Of a DNA stretch of 64,000 nucleotides, positions 53,563-64,000 are shown in pieces (positions within the stretch are counted from its first letter, which is position 1; each line of letters begins with the position of its first letter). The notes below the pieces were generated by a model. That model saw only the letters and a program-made list of their open reading frames with translations. It was not told where the DNA came from and searched no databases. A program made the position numbers and the translations under genes. Source of the stretch: Chrysomallon squamiferum (lineage: Eukaryota; Animalia; Mollusca); contig CM022675.1 of assembly GCA_012295275.1 (NCBI GenBank), forward strand, positions 15,748,001 through 15,812,000, in the 5' to 3' direction.

Positions 53563-54059
53563 GTGAGTAAAGTTATCGTTCTTTTCGTAAAATTTCCATT
53601 TAAGGCAAAACATTAAATTTAAGTAATTAAATCTGGGCTGGTTAATAAATGATCAAATTTATTTAAGCACTTCTCGGAAAGTGTTACTTGCATACAGTCT
53701 TAGCGAGGCCATCTGCACAAAATCACTGTAGGTTTTGGCCACTTTATTTATTCGTTTTGCTGGAAAAAGCGAAAAATCAAGAGTCACCGTGAACTGTTTC
53801 TCCTGTATTATAAACCAAAAGTAACCTTCTCAGTTATGAGTGTTTATTTAGTAGTATTTACCTTTTAATTCGACCTTTCAGTGCTTGTGGCAATAAATAT
53901 TGGAAATCATGAAGGCATGAGTGTGGTTAAAAAGTGTCAGTTGAAAAAAATAAAATTGAAAATTGATGTAATGCATTATCAGATACAGTATATTAAAAGC
54001 TTCACAAAAGCTACTTAATATTTGTTCACACCTTGAAAACGTACTGACTTGTGTTTCAG

Positions 54060-54127
54060 TGCTGCCGAAACTGAGAAAAATGACATATACTAGTATTCAG
54101 TGGAACAGTATAAAGCAGAACAAATAA
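54060..54127 (+). CDS. Putative exon 2 completing a 55-aa ORF (...VLPKLRKMTYTSIQWNSIKQNK*)
   Basis: Branch point TACTGAC 54042-54048, acceptor gtgtttcAG 54058-59, in-phase reading to TAA 54125-54127. An alternative acceptor lies at 53880-81. Confidence 0.35.
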
Positions 54128-54199
54128 TCTGTTACAACATGCACAAGCATAAAGACAACATCAAACACAAGAAATTAAAAACATGATTTATGATCACAG

Positions 54200-54566
54200 A
54201 AACAATGATTTACAAACATACATATCAACACGAATATATATTTAATTTGAAAATGTATGACTCAGAATTAAGAAGTCACTACCACTGAAAACTCAGTTCT
54301 CAGACACTAAAGGTTCACTTGTGTATCGTATCGAGTTCGGGCTCGGACACATCCAGCCAGCGGACCTCGTCTTCTGGATTGTTCACTTTATGTCTGAGAG
54401 TGTCTGTTATTAGTGTGAGCCTCGCCCACTCAGCGCAGTCACTGGAGTCAACAGACATGCATCATAAGGCCTGGCAAAGATTTCACCAACTTTTCAGCTA
54501 TGCAATCTTTTATACTTATGTTCTGATTCCTGGTTCGACATTTTTGTAGAATCAACAAAAACAATA
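54200..54566 (-). other. Exon 2 of a convergent minus-strand small transcript (lncRNA or smORF; 3' end uncertain)
   Basis: Acceptor gttttgttttctctgttgcAG at 54568-54567. Contains a 47-codon ORF MSVDSSDCAEWARLTLITDTLRHKVNNPEDEVRWLDVSEPELDTIHK*. Confidence 0.45.
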
Positions 54567-54604
54567 CTGCAACAGAGAAAACAAAACATTATATAGAATA
54601 TATT

Positions 54605-55040
54605 AATTACGTATAGTTTACATCAATTACTTATAGTTTGAATCAGTTACATATACTATACATCAGATACGTAAAGTCTACATCAGTTAGGAACAGCATA
54701 TATGAGTTCCTTATAGCATACATGAGTTATATGTGGCATACATCCCTTATATATACTATACACCAGTTACGTATACTATACATGAATTACACATAGTATA
54801 CGTGAGTTACATATACTATACATGAGTTACGTATAGAGCGCTTCAGTTACGTATACTAGACATCAGATACTTATAATAAACATCAGTAACATACACTATA
54901 CATAGCTAACATATACTATATGTGACTTACATACAGCGATGTGTACATCAGTCAGATGAGCTACATATCGTATATATGAATTGCACAGAGCAGACATGAT
55001 TAGTAGATAGTATACATGAGATAAGTTACATATATTTTAC
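54605..55040. repeat. Degenerate ~20-bp tandem repeat (TACATCAGTTACATATACTA)n in the intron of the minus-strand transcript
   Basis: Recurrent ACATCAGTTAC/ACATGAGTTAC units. Confidence 0.8.
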
Positions 55041-55619
55041 ATTAGACATTGAACAGGTATGCCGCTACCAAGGTAACGTTGATCAGAACAGAGTTCAAGA
55101 GTAGTCTTTGTTTAAATAAATGAATAAATTAATACAAAAATAAACAAACAAATAAATAATAACTAACTTTAAGGCATGTGTTTTCAATTCTGTTTTTTTA
55201 TGGGTAGGTGCGGAAAAGAAATAATCTTTGCTTTTTTTTATCATATCCTTATATCAAGATATATCGCCAAATTAAATTAATGTACAATAATAATAATAAA
55301 TAAATAATAATAAAAAAATAAAATAGAAACGATACATAATGTATTAATACAAACAGATATTTCTATATGGTATCAATACTTGCATATTGTAGTACATGGA
55401 CCAACAGGAACGATAACTCGTAATGGCACAAATTGCGTCGCCGGGAAAAATGGCTCCAGATTACTCTTTTTTAATGGATACAAACTACACCTGAACGTTC
55501 TTTTCAGTTTATAATGCACGCATTTGCACAAAAATAATCCATTTTGAAAAGTTTGATTAAGCTGAAAAAGTAGTTAGGTAACGTGCAATACATCATGGTT
55601 TATGAACAACCACCCTTAC

Positions 55620-55760
55620 CTTTATTATTGTAAATCATAAACAAATTCAGGAAACTGACGTAAAATTGTTGAAATTTGGAACTGCAATGTGATGGTTTCT
55701 GAGCATACACTGAAATTTCAGATCGAAATTCAAAATGGCGGCGTCTACCTTCGGTCAACG
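55620..55760 (-). other. Exon 1 of the convergent minus-strand transcript (5' end approximate)
   Basis: YY1-type GCCGCCATTTTG (plus strand CAAAATGGCGGC 55731-55742) near the 5' end, donor AAAG|GTAAGG with GT at 55619-55618, and upstream CRE TGACGTCA 55975-55982. Confidence 0.5.
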
Positions 55761-55818
55761 CTTACAAATGTTTAAACATATATTCCTTCATGATGTAATC
55801 AATTCTGCACGGATTATT

Positions 55819-55874
<56 letters not shown>

Positions 55875-56044
55875 AATATGTCTTATAATCAATACCTCGT
55901 ATATATAGATGTCCATTACTGAGAAGCAATTGTTGCAAAGGTCGAAACATTTTGGTGGGTTTTCTTTTTAACTTTGACGTCATACCATCTCGTTCCCATT
56001 TCGTACTATATATATATATTTATTATTATTATTTTTTTCTTCAA

Positions 56045-56076
<32 letters not shown>

Positions 56077-56639
56077 GTAATAGTAGTAGTAGTAGCAGAA
56101 GTAGTACACTAAACCAATGATGCAACAATGCAATACTGTAATATAAATTCTATTATTCTTTTGTATTTTAGTTATTAAAAGTATAAAATAAATTTTTTAT
56201 TGTGTAATGATGCAGAATAATTTTTTCCATCACTTTTTTTTATGGGTGTGAAATTGTTTTGCGTTTTGGATTTTCTTTTTGCCTCACCAACTTGTAATTT
56301 CTATACCTGTATCAATTTGTTTAAAACACTCTTTTTTTATGTTCTAACAACTTATATGTGTGTGTCCATTTATGCAAAATAAACATTATTTTTCCTTCTG
56401 AAAATATTGGGTATGTCACTCTACCTGTTAGCTGGGGTCTATAAATGTTAATCTGCTATTGGGTCTTGCTTTTTAAAGCTGCCAAAAGGACTGCTACATT
56501 TTGACAACATCTGAGCATTAATTTGTGTTTGGAAATAAACATTCTGATGATGGTTAAGTGTAGTTAATTAGTGTCAGTGAGAAAAATTATGCTCATTACA
56601 TTTGAAATTTGATTCAAAACATACTACAACACAATAACA

Positions 56640-57213
56640 ACATAGTAGGGAAACATCTTTTTATTCAGTCTCTTCTTTGGTTGGACATTTGCTTTATAAT
56701 GTTCACTCATATTCAAACAGGTTCTTTAAAACATCTGTTCGAAAGTCAATTCTTTAATTTTATCCAAGGGTAATTCACCGTCTGCTCCATTTACATTCAC
56801 CCTAATCAGCATGTAACTTTTCTAAGCACTATTACAGTATAAATCATTGTCTGTTCAGTTTTTGTCCCTGTGTTCTTAACATACTCTCACTGCAAACCAG
56901 TTTGAAGCCTACTGTAGTCACTTTTATATATGTATATATGCAAGTATTTTTTATGTGTGCGTATCTATTTATGTATGCATGTATTTATTTATGCTTGTGC
57001 ATATTTATGTATGCATGTATTTATGCGTGTGTTGTGTATCTCTTTATGTATGTATGTATGTATGTATGGCTGGCCACCATTTTTATTTTTCCATGTATTT
57101 TGGTAGCACAGCTAGTCTTCTTGGACTCTTGGTATGTACTGTCACAGAATCACCCATGTTGACAACATCTGTGTACAATGTCAACATCTGTGAATGTTCA
57201 TCACGGGTTTGTC
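56640..57213 (-). other. Distal terminal 3' UTR exon, most likely of the hnRNP A gene
   Basis: Acceptor gtgtcttttacttacAG at 57215-57214. AATAAA at 56665-56660 is followed by a GU-rich downstream element (tatgttgttattgtgttgtagtatgttttg). Confidence 0.55.
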
Positions 57214-57832
57214 CTGTAAGTAAAAGACACACAAAATAAATAAATTTAAAAATAAAAGCATGTCTGATGCCATTTAGACTTTCACTCAAACAAAAAACAA
57301 AATGTGAGTAAAGGCAACTCTTTCAAAATGTGTAACATTCAAAAGTTTTGAAGATTAACAACTGAATGGACTGAAGAATGTTAAAATAGCCGTGACTACG
57401 CATCAGATAATTCATATCAGATAGCCATTACTGCATAGTAATGATCTGCTCACAGCCCCAATTTCTGATGTTTTCACTGCTGCAAAACCATTCAGATACC
57501 ATTCGATCTAGCAAAGAATACTTAAATTATATAAATAAGCATGTAGGTGGCCAAGCTACAACAGTTTAATTGAAATACTTTAACATTTAATGTGCAGCTT
57601 ACAAAAACCTTTGGAAGTTTTTTTTTTTTTTTTCGTTTTCGTTTTCAACATCAAATTGGTTCTTTGTGACCAATTCTGACACTGATTTTATGATGCTCTT
57701 CTGCTAAGTGAGTTTGGCTACTCCTGACATACTAATTTCAGTACACTCCTTGCAAGAAAATTCATAAACTTCTGTTGGGAATCACTAACCTAGACTGGTT
57801 TTGTATAAACTGGCTGTGACAGTAGTACTTAC

Positions 57833-57905
57833 CAGAAATGAAACAAGATTGGTACTTATTTCTTTCAACAAGGCTTCAGTTCTATTCCAGGTTCTTCAGA
57901 TACAC
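57833..57905 (-). other. 73-nt non-coding (3' UTR) exon
   Basis: Acceptor ttttttattttgaatatAG (57907-57906) and donor CTG|GTAAGT (57832-57831). Stops in all three frames. Confidence 0.6.
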
Positions 57906-58499
57906 CTATATTCAAAATAAAAAATACAGAAATTTTATGTTTGAAATGTACTGATCTGTAATTACAACAAGTTTTCAGCCAGTTAGAATTTTATTTTCAT
58001 AGATTCAAACAATCTAATGTGTTATGTACAATTAAAGAGAGCCTTTCTTTTTTTATTTAAAATGTCAAAATATTTCTCTGGTGAAAGCCCTACAAAAACA
58101 AAGTCTAACGTGTTTTAGATGTTTCCAAATAGATTTGTTTTTTTGTTCTAGCCAACAAATTGGACCATACAGTTAATAATTTATTCACTTTTTCTTTTGG
58201 TTTACTAGTTCAAATTCATTTTTAACAAAAAATAGAAGTCTACCATTTGCTCAAATCACCATAGTAAATTTTAAAATGAATTATGTATTGTTGTTCATCT
58301 TAAACTGCACACCACAAACTGGCTGAAAACTTAAATACTGAAAAAGAAATTTAAATAAATAAATAAAAGTAAATATCTTGTGCTATTTTATTACATATGA
58401 AATTAAAGGTTGCTATTTTTTTTTTTTTTTTGTGGACATCTTAATAAAACCTAGATTAATAATATCTGCTTAAGTTACAAAAAAACCTATGATCTGAAC

Positions 58500-59570
58500 A
58501 AATTATCCTAACATATTGTGTTTGTATGAATTTCCTAATATATCCTATGATCTGTATAAACTGTCATAACATATCCTACTATCTACATAAATTAACATAT
58601 TCAGTGATCTGTATAAACTGTCCTAACATATCCAACAAGTATACAAACTATCTTAACATTTCCTATGCAAGTAAAAACTGTCCTAATATATCCTACATGT
58701 ACAAATTGCCCTAACATTTCCTACAAACATAAAAATTGTTCGAACATATCCTACTTACGTACAAATGGTCCTAACATTTCCTACACAAGTTCAATTTGTC
58801 CCAATATATCCTACATGTGTATAAATTGTCCTAACATTTCCTGCATACATACAAATGGTCCTAACAAATTTCCCTAACATATCCTACTTATGTACAAATT
58901 TCCTAACATATACATACAAATGGTCCTAACATATCCTACTTATGTACAAATGGTCCTAACATTTCCTACACAAGTACAAATTTCCCTAACATATCCTACT
59001 TATGTACAAACTGTCCTAACATATCCTACTTATGTACAAACTGTCCTAACATATCCTACTTATATACAAGTGGTCCTAACATTTCCTACACAAGTACAAA
59101 TGGTCCTAACATATCCTACTTATATGTACAAACTGTCCTAACATAGCCTACTTATGTACAAATCGTCCTAACATATCCTACACAAGTTCAATTTGTCCTA
59201 ACATTTCCTACTTATGTACAAACTGTCCTAACATATCCTACACAAGTACAAACTGTCCTAACATATCCTACTTATGTACAAACTGTCCTAACATATCCTA
59301 CTTATATACAAATGGTCCTAACATTTCCTACACAAGTACAAATGGTCCTAACATATCCTACTTATATGTACAAACTGTCCTAACATTTCCTACACAAGTT
59401 CAATTTGTCCTAACATTTCCTACATAAGTACAAATTGTCCTAACATATCCTATGTGTACAAATTGTCCTGACATTTCCTACTTATGTACAAAGTGTCTTA
59501 CTGTCCTATCTGTATGAACTGTCATAACGTCCTCATCTGTACAAACTAACATATCCTACTATCTGTATAT
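58500..59570. repeat. 30-bp minisatellite (TCCTAACATATCCTACTTATGTACAAACTG)n, ~27 well-formed units plus degenerate flanks
   Basis: Visible array. The minus-strand unit reads CAGTTTGTACATAAG-TAGGA-TATGT-TAGGA. Confidence 0.93.
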
Positions 59571-59777
59571 TCAAATTTTTCTAACATCCACTTCAGATAG
59601 AATTATACACAGCAAAACTGATGCTTAGTCACAAATGTTTCTATTTAGTTTTAAAATATCAAATTATATTATACTTTAAAACAGATTCTTTTAGCGACAA
59701 TACCTAAACAGCAGTAGTATTATATAACGTAGGAATTTCCTAATAAAAGAAAGCACCTGCAAGAAACCCTATCTTAC

Positions 59778-59872
59778 CTGCATTTAAAGTCTTCTGTGAT
59801 AAATTTCTAACACTATCATCAGTAGTTAAATATAGCTGCTACCTGGACGATTTTGCCTCTAACTTCTGCTAC
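59778..59872 (-). other. 3' UTR exon, or 3' end of an extended UTR exon, of the hnRNP A gene
   Basis: Strong donor CAG|GTAAGA (GT 59777-59776). Possible acceptor ...tttctcttgttctcatgacatgtacAG at 59874-59873. Confidence 0.45.
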
Positions 59873-61329
59873 CTGTACATGTCATGAGAACAAGAGAAAC
59901 AACTCACACGGTATACAGACAGTTCATGCAACCCGAACCTGAAGGTTGATGTCCAGATATACCAATGTTGTATTTTTAAGTTACTTTTGTGAGTGGATGG
60001 TGTAGTTGACAATTTCAAACATTCTTTACTATATATTATTAATTTAATTTTTTTTTTTTTTTTTTTTTGAAAGCTATAGTTAGCAGTAAAGCAAATGTAA
60101 GGAAGAAAGAGTGGAATTGTAAATATATACAGATCTTTAACATCTAAGAGAAACATTTTTTTTTTACAAGTAAGAATTCAGTTTTATTCGAGATTTTTTA
60201 AAAATTTGACGTATTTTCTAAAACTAAGATTTTTGACTGATTATTCTGGATTGCTGTATGTTTGTTTTTAATAAAATTTCAAAGCCTCAAGAATAAAGGA
60301 AACATTTTTAGTGCTAATCAATTTACATAACATCTGAATGTTTAGAATCAACGAACTCAGGGAAATGCTAGTTCAGGTACTTAACATGAAATTATCTGGC
60401 CATGTGTAATAAAAATTAGTTACGAGTAAACTGTATCAAAGGCTACATAATCATACTCTATATTATGCAAAGCAGGTAAACCAAATCATTTTTTGTAACT
60501 TTTCTGTTTTCATTAAAAATTTATGCAGGATAATGGCATATATGTATTTACTACAAATTTGTTATTTTCAAATAAAAAGAAAAAATGTAAGAGGTAAGAT
60601 TTCTGGGGTTTTTTTTATCATTCATTAAATTTACCATTTAATGATGAAGAATTCATCAAATTAAAAGTATGAATGGAAAGATTAAAAAAAAAAGATCTAA
60701 TACTACATCATGCAAACATTTAAGTAGTAAGTGACACTGATAAATATTTATTTCTGATGACAGACTGAACAATGAGATGCACACAGTAAACAAGGCAGGA
60801 CATTTTACAAAAATTAAGATACGAAAATCTAGGAAGTGTCCTTTTTTTTCTCAATATAAAATACTTTCAGAATTGTTTTCTTGTTTAACATCCTTGTAAT
60901 ATCCCAGGTTAGGTCCATGATACAGCATTAATGATATATTTTGATCCACAAGAATGATAATCTTTCCATCAAGAGTAAAAATAAACAGTTGGTTTTTTCC
61001 TTTCATTTCAGTTTTAAGAATATTAATTCTGTAGATTGTGTGAATATTAGAAAAATTTGTCACAAATACTTCAGCCATTTTCATACGAAACAGAAAAGTT
61101 TGAACAGTAATTTCAACATGATAGGATTAATTTTCATAAAACTAGCTGACCATCATCTGTGATTTAGGTAATCTGACGTTGTTGACTTATAAGTAAAACT
61201 TCAGTTGTAATCTCATTTCTGGTTTGGTTAATGCAGCTTTGCAGAATTTCTTTTGTGAATCTGAGGACAGTTCTTCTGACTGAGGTTTCACATATAAACA
61301 ATTATCTTCCAAGCATAGTCTTCATAGTC

Positions 61330-61839
61330 TCATAATTTTGGTATAAATTTTTATTCTGACTTTCCTGCCTTTCAAAGATTTTTTTTTGTTTTCCTGAATA
61401 ACTTGCCTGCCTCAAATAATGAAGATGAATGCCTGTCATTGCCTTTTGGTTTTAGCAGTATTTTTCATAAAAATCTGATTCCGGAACTATCTGTTTTTTT
61501 CTTTATTTTGGATAGATAGCAACTTCATACAGGATATATTTTAGAGCTCTACCTGTTTTTGAAGTAACTTTTATTTTTTAAAAAGTAGTGATTTCTGTCA
61601 TGAGTTTTAATCCTGAATTACCTGCCTGCCTCGAGTTATTTGTGCTGAAGAATTTTTTTTAATTTCCGAATTACCTGCCTGTCAAGATGGATTTGATTGA
61701 ACCTGCTGTAATTTTTCATTTAGTTATGAGTTAACTGTCTGCTTTTAAGTTCCTGTTGTAAATCTAATTGGATGAAAGAATTGGTTCTTGATGAATTTAG
61801 CCCTGTCCATAAATGTGACTTCTGATATCATCTGCCTGC
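61330..61839 (-). other. Main 3' UTR exon of the hnRNP A gene (3' end approximate)
   Basis: Acceptor ctattttaactatatttAG at 61841-61840 pairs with the donor at 62069. AATAAA candidates near 61575, 61507 and 61355. Internal CAG|GTAATT donor-like sites at 61674 and 61621. Confidence 0.6.
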
Positions 61840-62092
61840 CTAAATATAGTTAAAATAGAACTGAACATTAACTGTAACATGAACAATATGATTTGTTGTA
61901 AGATTTTGAAATAAGGTAAATATTAAACCCAAATGAAAATCACTAGATCCACTCTGTAAAGAGTAAGAGGTAATGTATTACTTATTATCAGCTCTGAAAC
62001 AATGTATGATCTCATGTTGAATTACTTGAAGAAGAATGGATTAACTAAGTAAACAGATTATTGTAATACCTGAGATTATCTTTTTCCACTGT

Positions 62093-62175
62093 TCAGTGCT
62101 TTCCATAGCCCCCACTGTAGCTGCCACTGTATCCACCACTGCTACCACCTCCACCATTTCCTCCACTGTATCCAC
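62093..62175 (-). CDS. HNRNPA1: hnRNP A1/A2/B1-family (Hrb87F/Hrb98DE-like) protein, last coding exon: GGYSGGNGGGGSSGGYSGSYSGGYGKH*
   Basis: Acceptor ctttgttacAG 62177-62176, phase-1 continuity with the previous exon, TGA at 62095-62093. The exon continues 23 nt to donor CAG|GTATTA (62069). The symbol denotes the family, not strict orthology. Confidence 0.8.
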
Positions 62176-62424
62176 CTGTAACAAAGTGGATTAGAAATTT
62201 GAGAGAAAAAACAAACATCCTCCACCACAGAAGTTTAGTAACTGAAACTGAATGCTTCAACGTTGATCCCCATTAATAGGAAACAAGATGATAATTTATT
62301 TAATCAACCTCAGAACTTTTTATGACAATGTTGTTATTGCCTATGCTTTATCTTTTTTCAGCCATTTAGTACAATTCCATTGAGTCACTAAGTCATTATT
62401 AACATACAAGCTGTATTTAATTAT

Positions 62425-62557
62425 GTATGTCTCTGCACTGAGATCTGAGCTGTGAAAAGGGAATACAGAGCAGAATTCTCAACACAAAATCTTACTATGG
62501 CACCGAAGGGAAAGTTCAAAAATCACTGAGAAGATACTTGAACAGCAAATGGTGCAA
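62425..62557 (-). ncRNA. Intronic H/ACA box snoRNA, copy 1; predicted guide for 28S rRNA AAGGGAAG-psi-CGGCAA
   Basis: 5' hairpin GCACC-AUUUGCU-GUUCA...UGAAC-UUUCCCUUC-GGUGC, H box AUAGUA (62498-62493) 15 nt from the pocket top, a second hairpin, and ACA at 62430-62428. About 132 nt and sense to the host gene. Confidence 0.82.
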
Positions 62558-62618
62558 AAGGCATCTTAATAAAAATTAATATGTATTTTAATATATTTAT
62601 GTAACAATAATAATTTAC

Positions 62619-62831
62619 CTTGGTAAGGACCCTGACTTCTCTGGGAGTATCCACCACCCTTCATTGAGCCACCCCCATAACTGTCTCCATAGCCTGATCC
62701 AAAAGAATTGCCTCCCCAATTTCCCCCACCCTGAGATGAATAACCTCCTCCATATGAGTCACTGTAACCTCCACTCTGTCCTCCATAGCCACCACTATAT
62801 CCTCCCTGACTACCATAACCACCACCTCCAC
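62619..62831 (-). CDS. HNRNPA1: hnRNP A1/A2/B1-family protein, Gly/Tyr/Ser-rich low-complexity exon with M9-like PY-NLS
   Basis: Acceptor tttgtttttcAG 62833-62832, donor AAG|GTAAAT 62618-62617, 213 nt, phase 1-1. Translates GGGGYGSQGGYSGGYGGQSGGYSDSYGGGYSSQGGGNWGGNSFGSGYGDSYGGGSMKGGGYSQRSQGPYQG, like the M9 segment (GPMKGG...RSSGPY) of hnRNP A1. The RRMs lie outside the window. Confidence 0.82.
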
Positions 62832-63018
62832 CTGAAAAACAAATACTTCAAATATAGACAAATACACAGTAACATCTTATTACAAGTAACAAATTAATGC
62901 CTGTATACAAATCACAGACAAAAGTTGTATCTATATAATCTAAAGCTATATATCTACATGCCAATATCCCACAGCATTGATTTCATCAAACTGTTTTGAA
63001 ACAAGTGAAATGATGTAT

Positions 63019-63147
63019 CAGTGTCTTTGTTCGGACAACTGTACTGGTACAACAAACCCAATGCAGAATTCTCAACAAATTTTATTATCGCACCAAAGGG
63101 AAAGTTAAAAAATCACCAATCAGACAGCTGAACGGCAGACGGTGCTT
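63019..63147 (-). ncRNA. Intronic H/ACA box snoRNA, copy 2
   Basis: GCACC-GUCUGCC-GUUCA...UUAAC-UUUCCCUUU-GGUGC hairpin, H box AUAAUA (63088-63083), ACA 63024-63022. Confidence 0.8.
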
Positions 63148-63704
63148 TGATTTTATTAGCTTCAAAACTGTATTAACTATGTGACTGTTTTTTTGGTAAA
63201 CAGCAAATGCTTGAGAATTAGAAACTTTAAAATGTATCATTACACCTACATTCTAATAATTTATAATTCTAAAAAATAAGTAAGCCTATTATTGGTTAAC
63301 ATGATGAATGTTGTATTTTCTTTTTCTCTATCTTTCTAAAATAAATAAAAATAATAACAAACTTGCTCACCAAATTAAAAAAATATCCTGACTAGTTTAT
63401 TAGGGAAAAGAATTTAAAATTATTAAAAGACTGTTCTTCATATTTTAGTACATGTGTCAATCCAAAGATTTATCATTTCTGAATTTGTTAATAATACAAA
63501 TTAAATATTTTGATATAACTGACTTACTAAAATAAAATTATTATTATCAAAATGAAAGATTAATGTATTAATTAAATTCAGCTTTTAAAAGTAATCTGAG
63601 AATGATTTTATACATATGATAAATGAACACGTGTCACAAATTATTATTAGATTTTAATTATTTGTTTTGTTGTTTTCCTTCAATTTAAGCTGTTTCTATT
63701 TTGA

Positions 63705-63834
63705 AAATGTCCATGATCTGAACATTACACTGATTATGGTTTCAGTGCAAATTTCTCATCTCAGGTTTTTAATGTTGCACCCAAGGGAAAGTTCAGATAT
63801 CACAAAGAAAATATCAGAACGGCAAAAGGTGCAG
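63705..63834 (-). ncRNA. Intronic H/ACA box snoRNA, copy 3
   Basis: GCACC-UUUUGCC-GUUC...GAAC-UUUCCCUUG-GGUGC hairpin, H box ACAUUA (63775-63770), second hairpin with GCACUGA/UCAGUGU stem, ACA 63710-63708. Confidence 0.8.
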
Positions 63835-64000
63835 CCTAAAATAATGTTACAAAGCTAAATGTAATTAAACAAAAATTTACAGACATTTTATGCACTGTAA
63901 AGTGAACTACATTTAGTATCTTAAAGCTAAATGAAGAATGAAATAAAAATATGAAAAATCAGCCCCCACAGGTCGACTATCACTTTTCCAGCTATCAGTA

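What the first reader, a model, noticed from the sequence alone, without database searches (positions are those of the whole stretch)
58500..59777. Minisatellite that forms a tandem UAGGA array in the 3' UTR intron of an hnRNP A1-family gene: candidate repeat-encoded autoregulatory sensor
Seen: the 30-bp repeat lies between a CAG|GTAAGA donor (59777) and the next acceptor (57906) downstream of the hnRNP A stop codon. On the transcribed (minus) strand each unit carries two UAGGA pentamers (..AAG-UAGGA-UAUGU-UAGGA..), roughly 50-60 in ~1 kb, and these are the best-preserved part of the otherwise variable units. The canonical UAGGGU motif sits 7 nt inside the same donor (59771-59766). Established: hnRNP A1/A2 RRMs bind UAG(G) cores (SELEX consensus UAGGGA/U), spread cooperatively, and vertebrate HNRNPA1 and HNRNPA2B1 regulate splicing of their own 3' UTR introns. 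Inference: the satellite may be a multivalent landing pad whose copy number tunes feedback on the protein level.
Basis: partly seen in the sequence, partly recalled or inferred. Interest (0 to 1): 0.8.

Follow-up and report, generated by a model that had tools for sequence, protein, structure and literature searches.

The report
Snail hnRNP A's own UAGG array
A likely snail gene for the RNA-binding protein hnRNP A carries about 55 tandem copies of that family's target word in its transcribed tail, in a stretch the RNA data show kept rather than spliced out as proposed, and it likely helps the protein damp its own production.

Summary
The array is real: a 30-bp minisatellite (about 59580-58490, minus strand) with 54 UAGGA on the sense strand and none antisense, downstream of the last coding exons of an hnRNP A/B gene. 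The proposed intron 59777-57906 was not seen. In 4 of 4 RNA runs (contigs, one study) the donor is read through, and in 3 of 4 the acceptor. One contig joins the array's end to a different, spliced intron (57832-57214) 4 kb past the stop codon. So the array sits in a long 3'-UTR form with an NMD-type junction, the layout known from human HNRNPA2B1. The non-repeated flank around the donor is itself (U/C)AGG-rich. One gastropod-like orthologue (L003) has a non-repeated UAGG cluster at a similar place, but it does not align, and 8 other long gastropod-like UTRs lack one. Variants that spread through the array avoid UAGGA (0 of 10 vs 9 of 20 columns), but rare mutations do not. Best reading: a lineage-specific amplification of an older hnRNP A feedback module (0.45). 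Neutral amplification is close behind (0.35). Binding, feedback and copy-number tuning are untested. New variant of a known kind.

The parts
62619..62831 (-). Gly-rich coding exon of an hnRNP A/B gene with the M9/PY-type nuclear import segment
   Evidence: Translation; last 31 aa best match Haliotis hnRNP A P0020, score 141, z 15.8 against shuffles; its donor is joined to the next exon in X3
62070..62175 (-). Last coding exon; stop TGA at 62095-62093, donor 23 nt later
   Evidence: joints in X3 and X4
61840..62069 (-). 3'-UTR intron 1 (230 nt), too close to the stop to trigger NMD by the 50-nt rule
   Evidence: Joint 61838/62069, CT..AC cut +1, in X3 and X4
61540..61839 (-). Proximal 3'-UTR CAGG cluster (10 CAGG within 300 nt; CAGGCAGG motifs shared with gastropod-like mRNAs L003, L006, L007, L009)
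   Evidence: p = 0.001 against dinucleotide shuffles; CAGG ranks 1 of 256 4-mers
60747..60752 (-). AATAAA, inferred proximal poly(A) signal
   Evidence: RNA contigs of X2, X3 and X4 end at 60812, 60675 and 60735 while X1 runs on; one study only, so a weak hint
59703..59941 (-). Non-repeated (U/C)AGG cluster: 8 sites in 236 nt, 6 of them AG|GT donor-like; includes the donor at 59777 and TAGGGT at 59771-59766
   Evidence: p = 0.001; contexts; crossed unspliced in 4 of 4 RNA runs
58490..59580 (-). 30-bp minisatellite, two UAGGA per unit 10 nt apart (58 UAGG in all); no open frame
   Evidence: covered by RNA contigs, distal part in one contig with the spliced 57832/57214 junction (X2 record 10)
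57833..57906 (-). Candidate acceptor (AG ends at 57906) and the 73-nt segment up to the used donor; acceptor not seen used
   Evidence: crossed unspliced in X2, X3, X4
57214..57832 (-). Distal 3'-UTR intron (619 nt), about 4030 nt after the stop; predicted NMD trigger
   Evidence: Joint 57212/57832, CT..AC cut +1, in X2, X3, X4; distance
56434..57213 (-). Terminal non-coding exon of the long form (end not mapped)
   Evidence: X2 record 10, X4 record 21; no ATG ORF of 40 aa or more in this exon

Best explanation
The array is a 30-bp tandem repeat holding 58 UAGG sites in the transcribed, extended 3' UTR of a likely snail hnRNP A gene; it likely arose by amplification of an older (U/C)AGG-rich element and likely serves as a landing pad through which the protein steers its own RNA into a long, predicted unproductive form. 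Shown: the gene family, UTR intron 1, read-through to the array, retention of the array and splicing of the distal intron 57832-57214. Inferred: (1) most mRNA ends near AATAAA 60752 and makes protein; (2) when hnRNP A is abundant it coats the donor-side cluster and the array (paired UAGG 10 nt apart suit two RRMs); (3) this favours read-through and keeps the strong donor 59777 silent; (4) the long RNA, with a junction 4 kb past the stop, is destroyed by NMD or held in the nucleus. The repeat form would add valency but need not be essential.
For: Both human A1 RRMs prefer UAGG, tolerate CAGG and can bind bipartite sites spaced 4 nt or more (PMC5503513, passages and section 6). The seven named RRM1 side-chain contacts (F17, F59, R55, E85, K87, D42, R92) are kept in the Haliotis orthologue, with E85 to D in Pomacea, Nucella and L003. 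The layout matches HNRNPA2B1: a small UTR intron near the stop plus a distal NMD junction that rises on A2 overexpression (PMC3091714 section 10). The non-repeated flank is (U/C)AGG-rich and so is the proximal UTR, both p = 0.001. L003, grouping with Pomacea and Nucella hnRNP A, has TAGG as its top 4-mer of 256 and 8 TAGG in 243 nt starting at a donor-like site beyond its AATAAA signals; it is the only one of 25 long UTRs with a TAGG cluster at p < 0.05, and antisense shows none. A random 30-mer of this window holds two or more TAGG on a given strand with probability 0.0017; no other array listed in the window has TAGG in its consensus unit. Common unit variants: 0 of 10 TAGGA columns vs 9 of 20 others, Fisher p = 0.012. 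UAGG is predicted more exposed than the rest (unpaired 0.48, AG core 0.69, all 0.36).
Against: No binding, perturbation or NMD data. This gene's own RRMs lie outside the window. The comparative support is one transcript, which does not align with the window (p = 0.15-0.57). Of 9 gastropod-like UTRs of 900 nt or more, 8 show no TAGG cluster: L007 ends at 1096 nt and seven are divergent paralogues. No other UTR of the 77 loci holds a UAGG tandem array. Rare substitutions are not depleted at TAGGA, the common variants are linked so the Fisher p is too small, and other arrays in the window are as patchy. The window's own copy has TAGGA broken at 58634 and 59524 where other samples have it intact, 2 of 5 single-base differences in the array. 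YAGG is also the core of splice-site consensus, so the clusters may reflect unused splice sites. Other UAG binders (Musashi, DAZAP1/Hrp48; recalled) could be the ligand.
Confidence: 0.45

Rival explanations
1. Neutral minisatellite: one of many in this genome, grown from a seed in an already UAGG-rich UTR. It may bind hnRNP A but does not matter for regulation.
For: The 64-kb window holds about 13 other arrays with period 10 or more and length 150 bp or more (my grouping of overlapping rows), so one in a 5.7-kb extended UTR is expected. The adjacent unique flank supplies YAGG-rich seed. Rare mutations are not depleted at the motif. No array in other UTRs. The array differs between samples at single bases and at one truncated unit near 58866.
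Against: Two UAGG per unit, all on the sense strand, is rare for random seeds (0.0017; 0.012 for shuffles of the unit). Variants that spread avoid the motif. 58 sites in a transcribed region are hard to see as inert if the family motif holds (inference).
Confidence: 0.35
2. One reading: 59777-57906 is a real regulated intron. hnRNP A on the array controls its splicing, and the spliced product is missing because it is rare, condition-specific or removed fast by NMD.
For: The donor matches 8 of 9 consensus positions, like the used donor 57832; such sites occur at 0.27 per kb. The acceptor has a T-rich tract and would define a 73-nt exon ending at a used donor. Contigs drop rare forms (tool note). 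UAGG near donors silences splicing through hnRNP A1 (PMC1079783, abstract).
Against: 0 of 4 runs show the joint; 4 of 4 cross the donor and 3 of 4 cross the acceptor unspliced. The equally NMD-type distal junction is seen in 3 of 4 runs.
Confidence: 0.12
3. Built-in sponge: the long form is a nuclear-retained RNA that stores hnRNP A on its array, as Drosophila hsr-omega-n does with its UAGG-nonamer repeats.
For: hsr-omega has locus-specific, fast-diverging tandem repeats past the first termination site that keep ATAGGTAGG-type nonamers, even in species without repeats, and Hrb87F/Hrb98DE bind them (bioRxiv 10.1101/695486, passages). The snail array plus the non-repeated cluster in L003, with TTAGGTAGG twice, has the same pattern.
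Against: No localisation data. The array is only 1.1 kb, against more than 5 kb for hsr-omega. It has no YAGGYAGG nonamer. The long form is spliced at its distal intron.
Confidence: 0.08

Closest known systems
Human HNRNPA2B1 3'-UTR AS-NMD autoregulation (McGlincy 2010, PMC3091714; section 10 and passages read)
   Same: Same protein family; small UTR intron too near the stop for NMD; extended UTR with a distal spliced intron that would make the stop look premature; A1/A2 motifs in the distal region
   Different: There the element is conserved unique sequence and feedback was shown by overexpression and UPF1 knockdown; here the sites form a lineage-specific minisatellite and feedback is untested
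Human HNRNPA1 intron-10 autoregulation (Suzuki and Matsuoka 2017; seen only as cited in PMC8068773 and PMC9634572 passages)
   Same: An intron just after the stop codon (here 62069-61840) next to (U/C)AGG motifs
   Different: That control acts on the proximal intron, reportedly without NMD; the array lies 2.3 kb further downstream
TDP-43 3'-UTR autoregulation (review PMC7547044, section 14 read)
   Same: Own-protein sites in the 3' UTR with a proximal poly(A) site and distal, unstable, alternatively spliced forms
   Different: Different protein and motif; no minisatellite described there; poly(A) switching is only inferred here
Drosophila hsr-omega-n lncRNA (bioRxiv 10.1101/695486, passages read)
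   Same: Locus-specific tandem repeats past a proximal 3' end, rich in UAGG words bound by hnRNP A-type proteins; the motif outlives the repeat unit between species
   Different: A separate non-coding gene acting in trans in nuclear speckles; much longer repeats; here the repeat is inside the hnRNP A gene itself
PNCTR and other short-tandem-repeat RNAs (PMC6224606; search listing and start of abstract only)
   Same: High-density RBP recognition array in a transcript
   Different: Non-coding RNA binding another gene's protein (PTBP1, recalled); not cis feedback

Membership tests
hnRNP A/B gene family | Gly-rich C-terminus with M9/PY-NLS segment | tested here: met
   Best of 120 proteins is Haliotis P0020, z 15.8; P0020 matches human hnRNP A1 at E 1e-82. 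The segment alone gave no Pfam or PDB hit and only a 0.84 Atlas lead
hnRNP A/B gene family | Two N-terminal RRMs with UAGG-reading residues | not testable with these tools
   RRM exons lie beyond base 64000 and no genome is held; residues checked in orthologues only
3'-UTR AS-NMD autoregulation (HNRNPA2B1 type) | Spliced junction more than 50 nt past the stop in a long UTR form | tested here: met
   57832-57214 spliced in 3 of 4 runs, about 4030 nt past the stop; link to the coding exons is by overlapping contigs, not one molecule
3'-UTR AS-NMD autoregulation (HNRNPA2B1 type) | Own-protein motifs enriched at the regulated region | tested here: met
3'-UTR AS-NMD autoregulation (HNRNPA2B1 type) | Conservation of the element between species | tested here: inconclusive
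   Motif cluster in L003 only; no alignment; 8 of 9 long gastropod-like UTRs negative
3'-UTR AS-NMD autoregulation (HNRNPA2B1 type) | Isoform rises with own protein and with UPF1 loss | not testable with these tools
   Needs perturbation experiments
   No 59777-57906 joint in 4 runs; both sites crossed unspliced; rare forms would be missed
Dispersed genome-wide satellite | Copies elsewhere in either orientation | tested here: inconclusive
   31 of 31 window matches lie in the array; none in metagenome contigs; depth of run X5 over the array is like unique DNA (the tool warns depth is no copy number); genome not held
hsr-omega-type architectural RNA | Nuclear retention and speckle formation | not testable with these tools
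   Needs FISH or fractionation

The most novel reading that the evidence does not exclude
A minisatellite has taken over as the feedback sensor of an hnRNP A gene. The read-through RNA is a small hsr-omega built into the gene it controls, and array length, which appears to differ between animals, sets the protein's set-point as a heritable dial.
Probability: 0.15. Interest if true: 0.8.

Novelty: new variant of a known kind. Interest (0 to 1): 0.45.

Why it matters
Feedback elements of splicing-factor genes are usually highly conserved unique sequence. One made of a mutable tandem repeat would show that site number, not sequence, can be what is kept. It would offer a natural dose series for cooperative hnRNP A binding and would extend hnRNP A 3'-UTR autoregulation to molluscs, for which my searches found no report.

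Tried and rejected
No whole genome was held, so the genome-wide repeat survey and the gene's RRMs were not checked. Direct search with the Gly-rich exon gave nothing at E 0.001, in Pfam or the PDB; a 40-aa region at E 10 gave one weak hit, P0002, whose BLASTP match was not significant, so identity rests on the shuffle-controlled comparison. The repeat pattern has no match in metagenome contigs. Rfam gave only low-complexity matches below threshold in 54000-64000. Coding role of the array: rejected, 4-17 stops in each of six frames. The 95-aa ORF across a poly-A run near 60160 is treated as chance. Alignments of the donor region and distal exon with L003, and of the donor region with L009, were not significant (p = 0.07-0.57); the proximal UTR start gave p = 0.015-0.11 against four mRNAs. 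Copy number per animal could not be read from contig depth and was not used. Depth steps near 60730 are not taken as proof of a poly(A) site. Earlier scan notes held nothing on this locus. PMC2120007 held only abstract and references. In one search my spliced UTR dropped one base at the junction, which undercounts CAGG by one.

Full report
1. The sequence. Tandem Repeats Finder gives a period-30 array at 58529-59497, 32.2 copies, 75% matches. Wrap-around alignment over 59580-58480 gives 37 full units. On the minus strand 59570-58490 holds 54 TAGGA and 58 TAGG, with 0 on the plus strand; background is 1.2 TAGG per kb. Successive UAGG are mostly 10 or 20 nt apart (23 and 18 of 57 gaps). All 31 matches to the core 15-mer in the window lie in this array. 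The longer pattern is absent from metagenome contigs. Run X5, which covers all 30 bins and which I treat as DNA, shows 48-69 over the array core against 9274 over a dispersed repeat at 55336-55669. The tool warns that depth is no copy number, so this is a hint only.

2. The gene. Two Gly-rich exons end in a stop at 62095-62093. Standard searches failed on this low-complexity piece. A weak hit, P0002, led to 120 hnRNP A/B proteins. Against these, the last 31 residues of the first exon score best with Haliotis P0020 (141, z 15.8 against composition-kept shuffles), and P0020 matches human hnRNP A1 at E 1e-82. The host is therefore likely a snail, as earlier notes on this genome also say (unchecked). 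The RRMs lie outside the window. In orthologues the RRM1 contacts named for UAGG (PMC5503513 section 6) are kept: 7 of 7 side-chain contacts in Haliotis, E85 to D in Pomacea, Nucella and L003.

3. What the RNA shows. Five runs hold the stretch: four RNA runs of one study and one of unknown kind; all are contigs. Spliced joints seen: 62618-62176 (X3), 62069-61840 (X3, X4) and 57832-57214 (X2, X3, X4) (whose joint table has these last two rows only). No joint links 59777 to 57906. One contig in each of 4 of 4 runs crosses 59777 unspliced, and contigs in 3 of 4 cross 57906 unspliced. X2 record 10 runs from 58789, inside the array, through 57906 to the spliced distal junction and on to 56434. Overlapping contigs link 61850 to 59370 (X1 record 8, X3 record 17); the array core is in short pieces and no contig spans the whole. 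Because contigs join across the distal intron while the array region is kept, DNA carry-over is an unlikely explanation. So in these samples the array is in a long 3'-UTR form whose junction lies about 4030 nt past the stop, an NMD signature by the 50-nt rule (PMC7547044 section 14). Contigs drop rare forms, so a rare 59777-57906 splice is not excluded. A proximal 3' end near AATAAA 60752 is inferred from contig ends in 3 of 4 runs of one study and is weak.

4. Is UAGG favoured inside the array? TAGGA columns average 0.91 against 0.80 (column permutation p = 0.01), but ATGTT and TGTTA are better kept and the pair ranks 2 of 30 rotations. Common variants fall in 0 of 10 motif columns and 9 of 20 others (Fisher p = 0.012), yet columns 6-9 vary together, so events are fewer than columns. 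Rare substitutions are equal per column (19/10 vs 38/20), and seven control arrays show similar patchiness. Of 5 single-base differences between the window and the runs within the array, 2 are in TAGGA, with the window holding the broken form. All four RNA runs also diverge from the window at a truncated unit near 58866. These are alleles or assembly errors. The verdict is suggestive, not shown.

5. Chance. A random 30-mer of the window holds two or more TAGG on a fixed strand with probability 0.0017 and exactly one with 0.035; shuffles of the unit give 0.012. Arrays are common here, so an array in this UTR is unsurprising, but a UAGG-paired one is. The unique flank explains part of it: 59941-59703 holds 8 (U/C)AGG in 236 nt (p = 0.001), and the proximal UTR holds 10 CAGG in 300 nt (p = 0.001; top 4-mer of 256). 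The array probably grew from such sequence (inference). Six of the 8 flank sites are AG|GT, so splice-site likeness is a confound.

6. Relatives. One scan gave 77 loci from the best 80 of 406; 51 had 300 nt or more after the stop and 25 had 900 nt or more; shorter ones were left out of the tests. L003 groups with Pomacea and Nucella hnRNP A (support 86/87, 93). Its 2564-nt UTR has 17 TAGG against 6.9 expected, TAGG is its top 4-mer, and 8 lie in 243 nt (p = 0.001), starting at a donor-like site at L003 2873, beyond two AATAAA. It is the only one of 25 with such a cluster. With five patterns tested per UTR the p value would not survive full correction; it rests on the prior hypothesis. It is not repeated and does not align with the window. 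Against this, 8 of 9 gastropod-like long UTRs show no TAGG cluster: L007 stops at 1096 nt, and L015, L020, L024, L039, L033, L035 and L045 form a divergent paralogue clade without the R-x-PY ending. No UTR has a UAGG tandem array. CAGGCAGG near the stop is shared by L003, L006, L007 and L009.

7. Mechanism. Shown: family, introns, retention of the array in a long spliced form, motif excess. From the literature: A1 RRMs prefer (U/C)AGG and bind bipartite sites (PMC5503513, passages; PMC9634572, passages); HNRNPA2B1 feeds back through a distal UTR junction (PMC3091714 section 10 and passages); UAGG silences nearby splicing through A1 (PMC1079783, abstract). Inferred: excess protein coats the cluster and array, favours read-through, keeps donor 59777 silent and sends the RNA to decay or nuclear retention.

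8. Novelty. hnRNP A/B feedback through the 3' UTR is known in vertebrates. My searches of the open library found no report for molluscs and none of a minisatellite as a self-sensor (listings only; subscription papers are not covered). It works like the HNRNPA2B1 circuit in layout; membership awaits perturbation tests. New variant of a known kind; interest 0.45.

Noticed in passing
window 63695-63838, 63008-63148 and 62420-62560, minus strand: Three related elements in introns of the hnRNP A gene (76 invariant columns). Two fold as hairpin-hinge-hairpin (z -3.4 and -2.9; the middle copy -1.25 with another fold), with ANANNA hinge boxes and ACA near the 3' end by eye: likely H/ACA snoRNA copies. 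No Rfam match; target not identified.
   Followed up: partly
window 61674 and 61621, minus strand: Two strong donor-like sites (8 of 9 consensus positions) inside the proximal CAGG cluster; splicing from them would remove the inferred proximal poly(A) signal. Not seen used.
   Followed up: partly
window 55336-55669: High-copy dispersed repeat: summed depth 9274 in X5 with many loose ends.
   Followed up: no
L009, about 80-101 nt after the stop: Shares an 11-base word with the window's donor 59777 and its TAGGG; alignment p = 0.07, likely chance.
   Followed up: partly
L015, L020, L024, L039, L033, L035, L045: A divergent gastropod-like hnRNP A paralogue clade whose tails lack the R-x-PY import motif and whose long UTRs lack UAGG clusters.
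   Followed up: partly
window 62093-62110, minus strand: The protein ends in GYGKH, whereas most mollusc orthologues end in YRR or a close variant.
   Followed up: no
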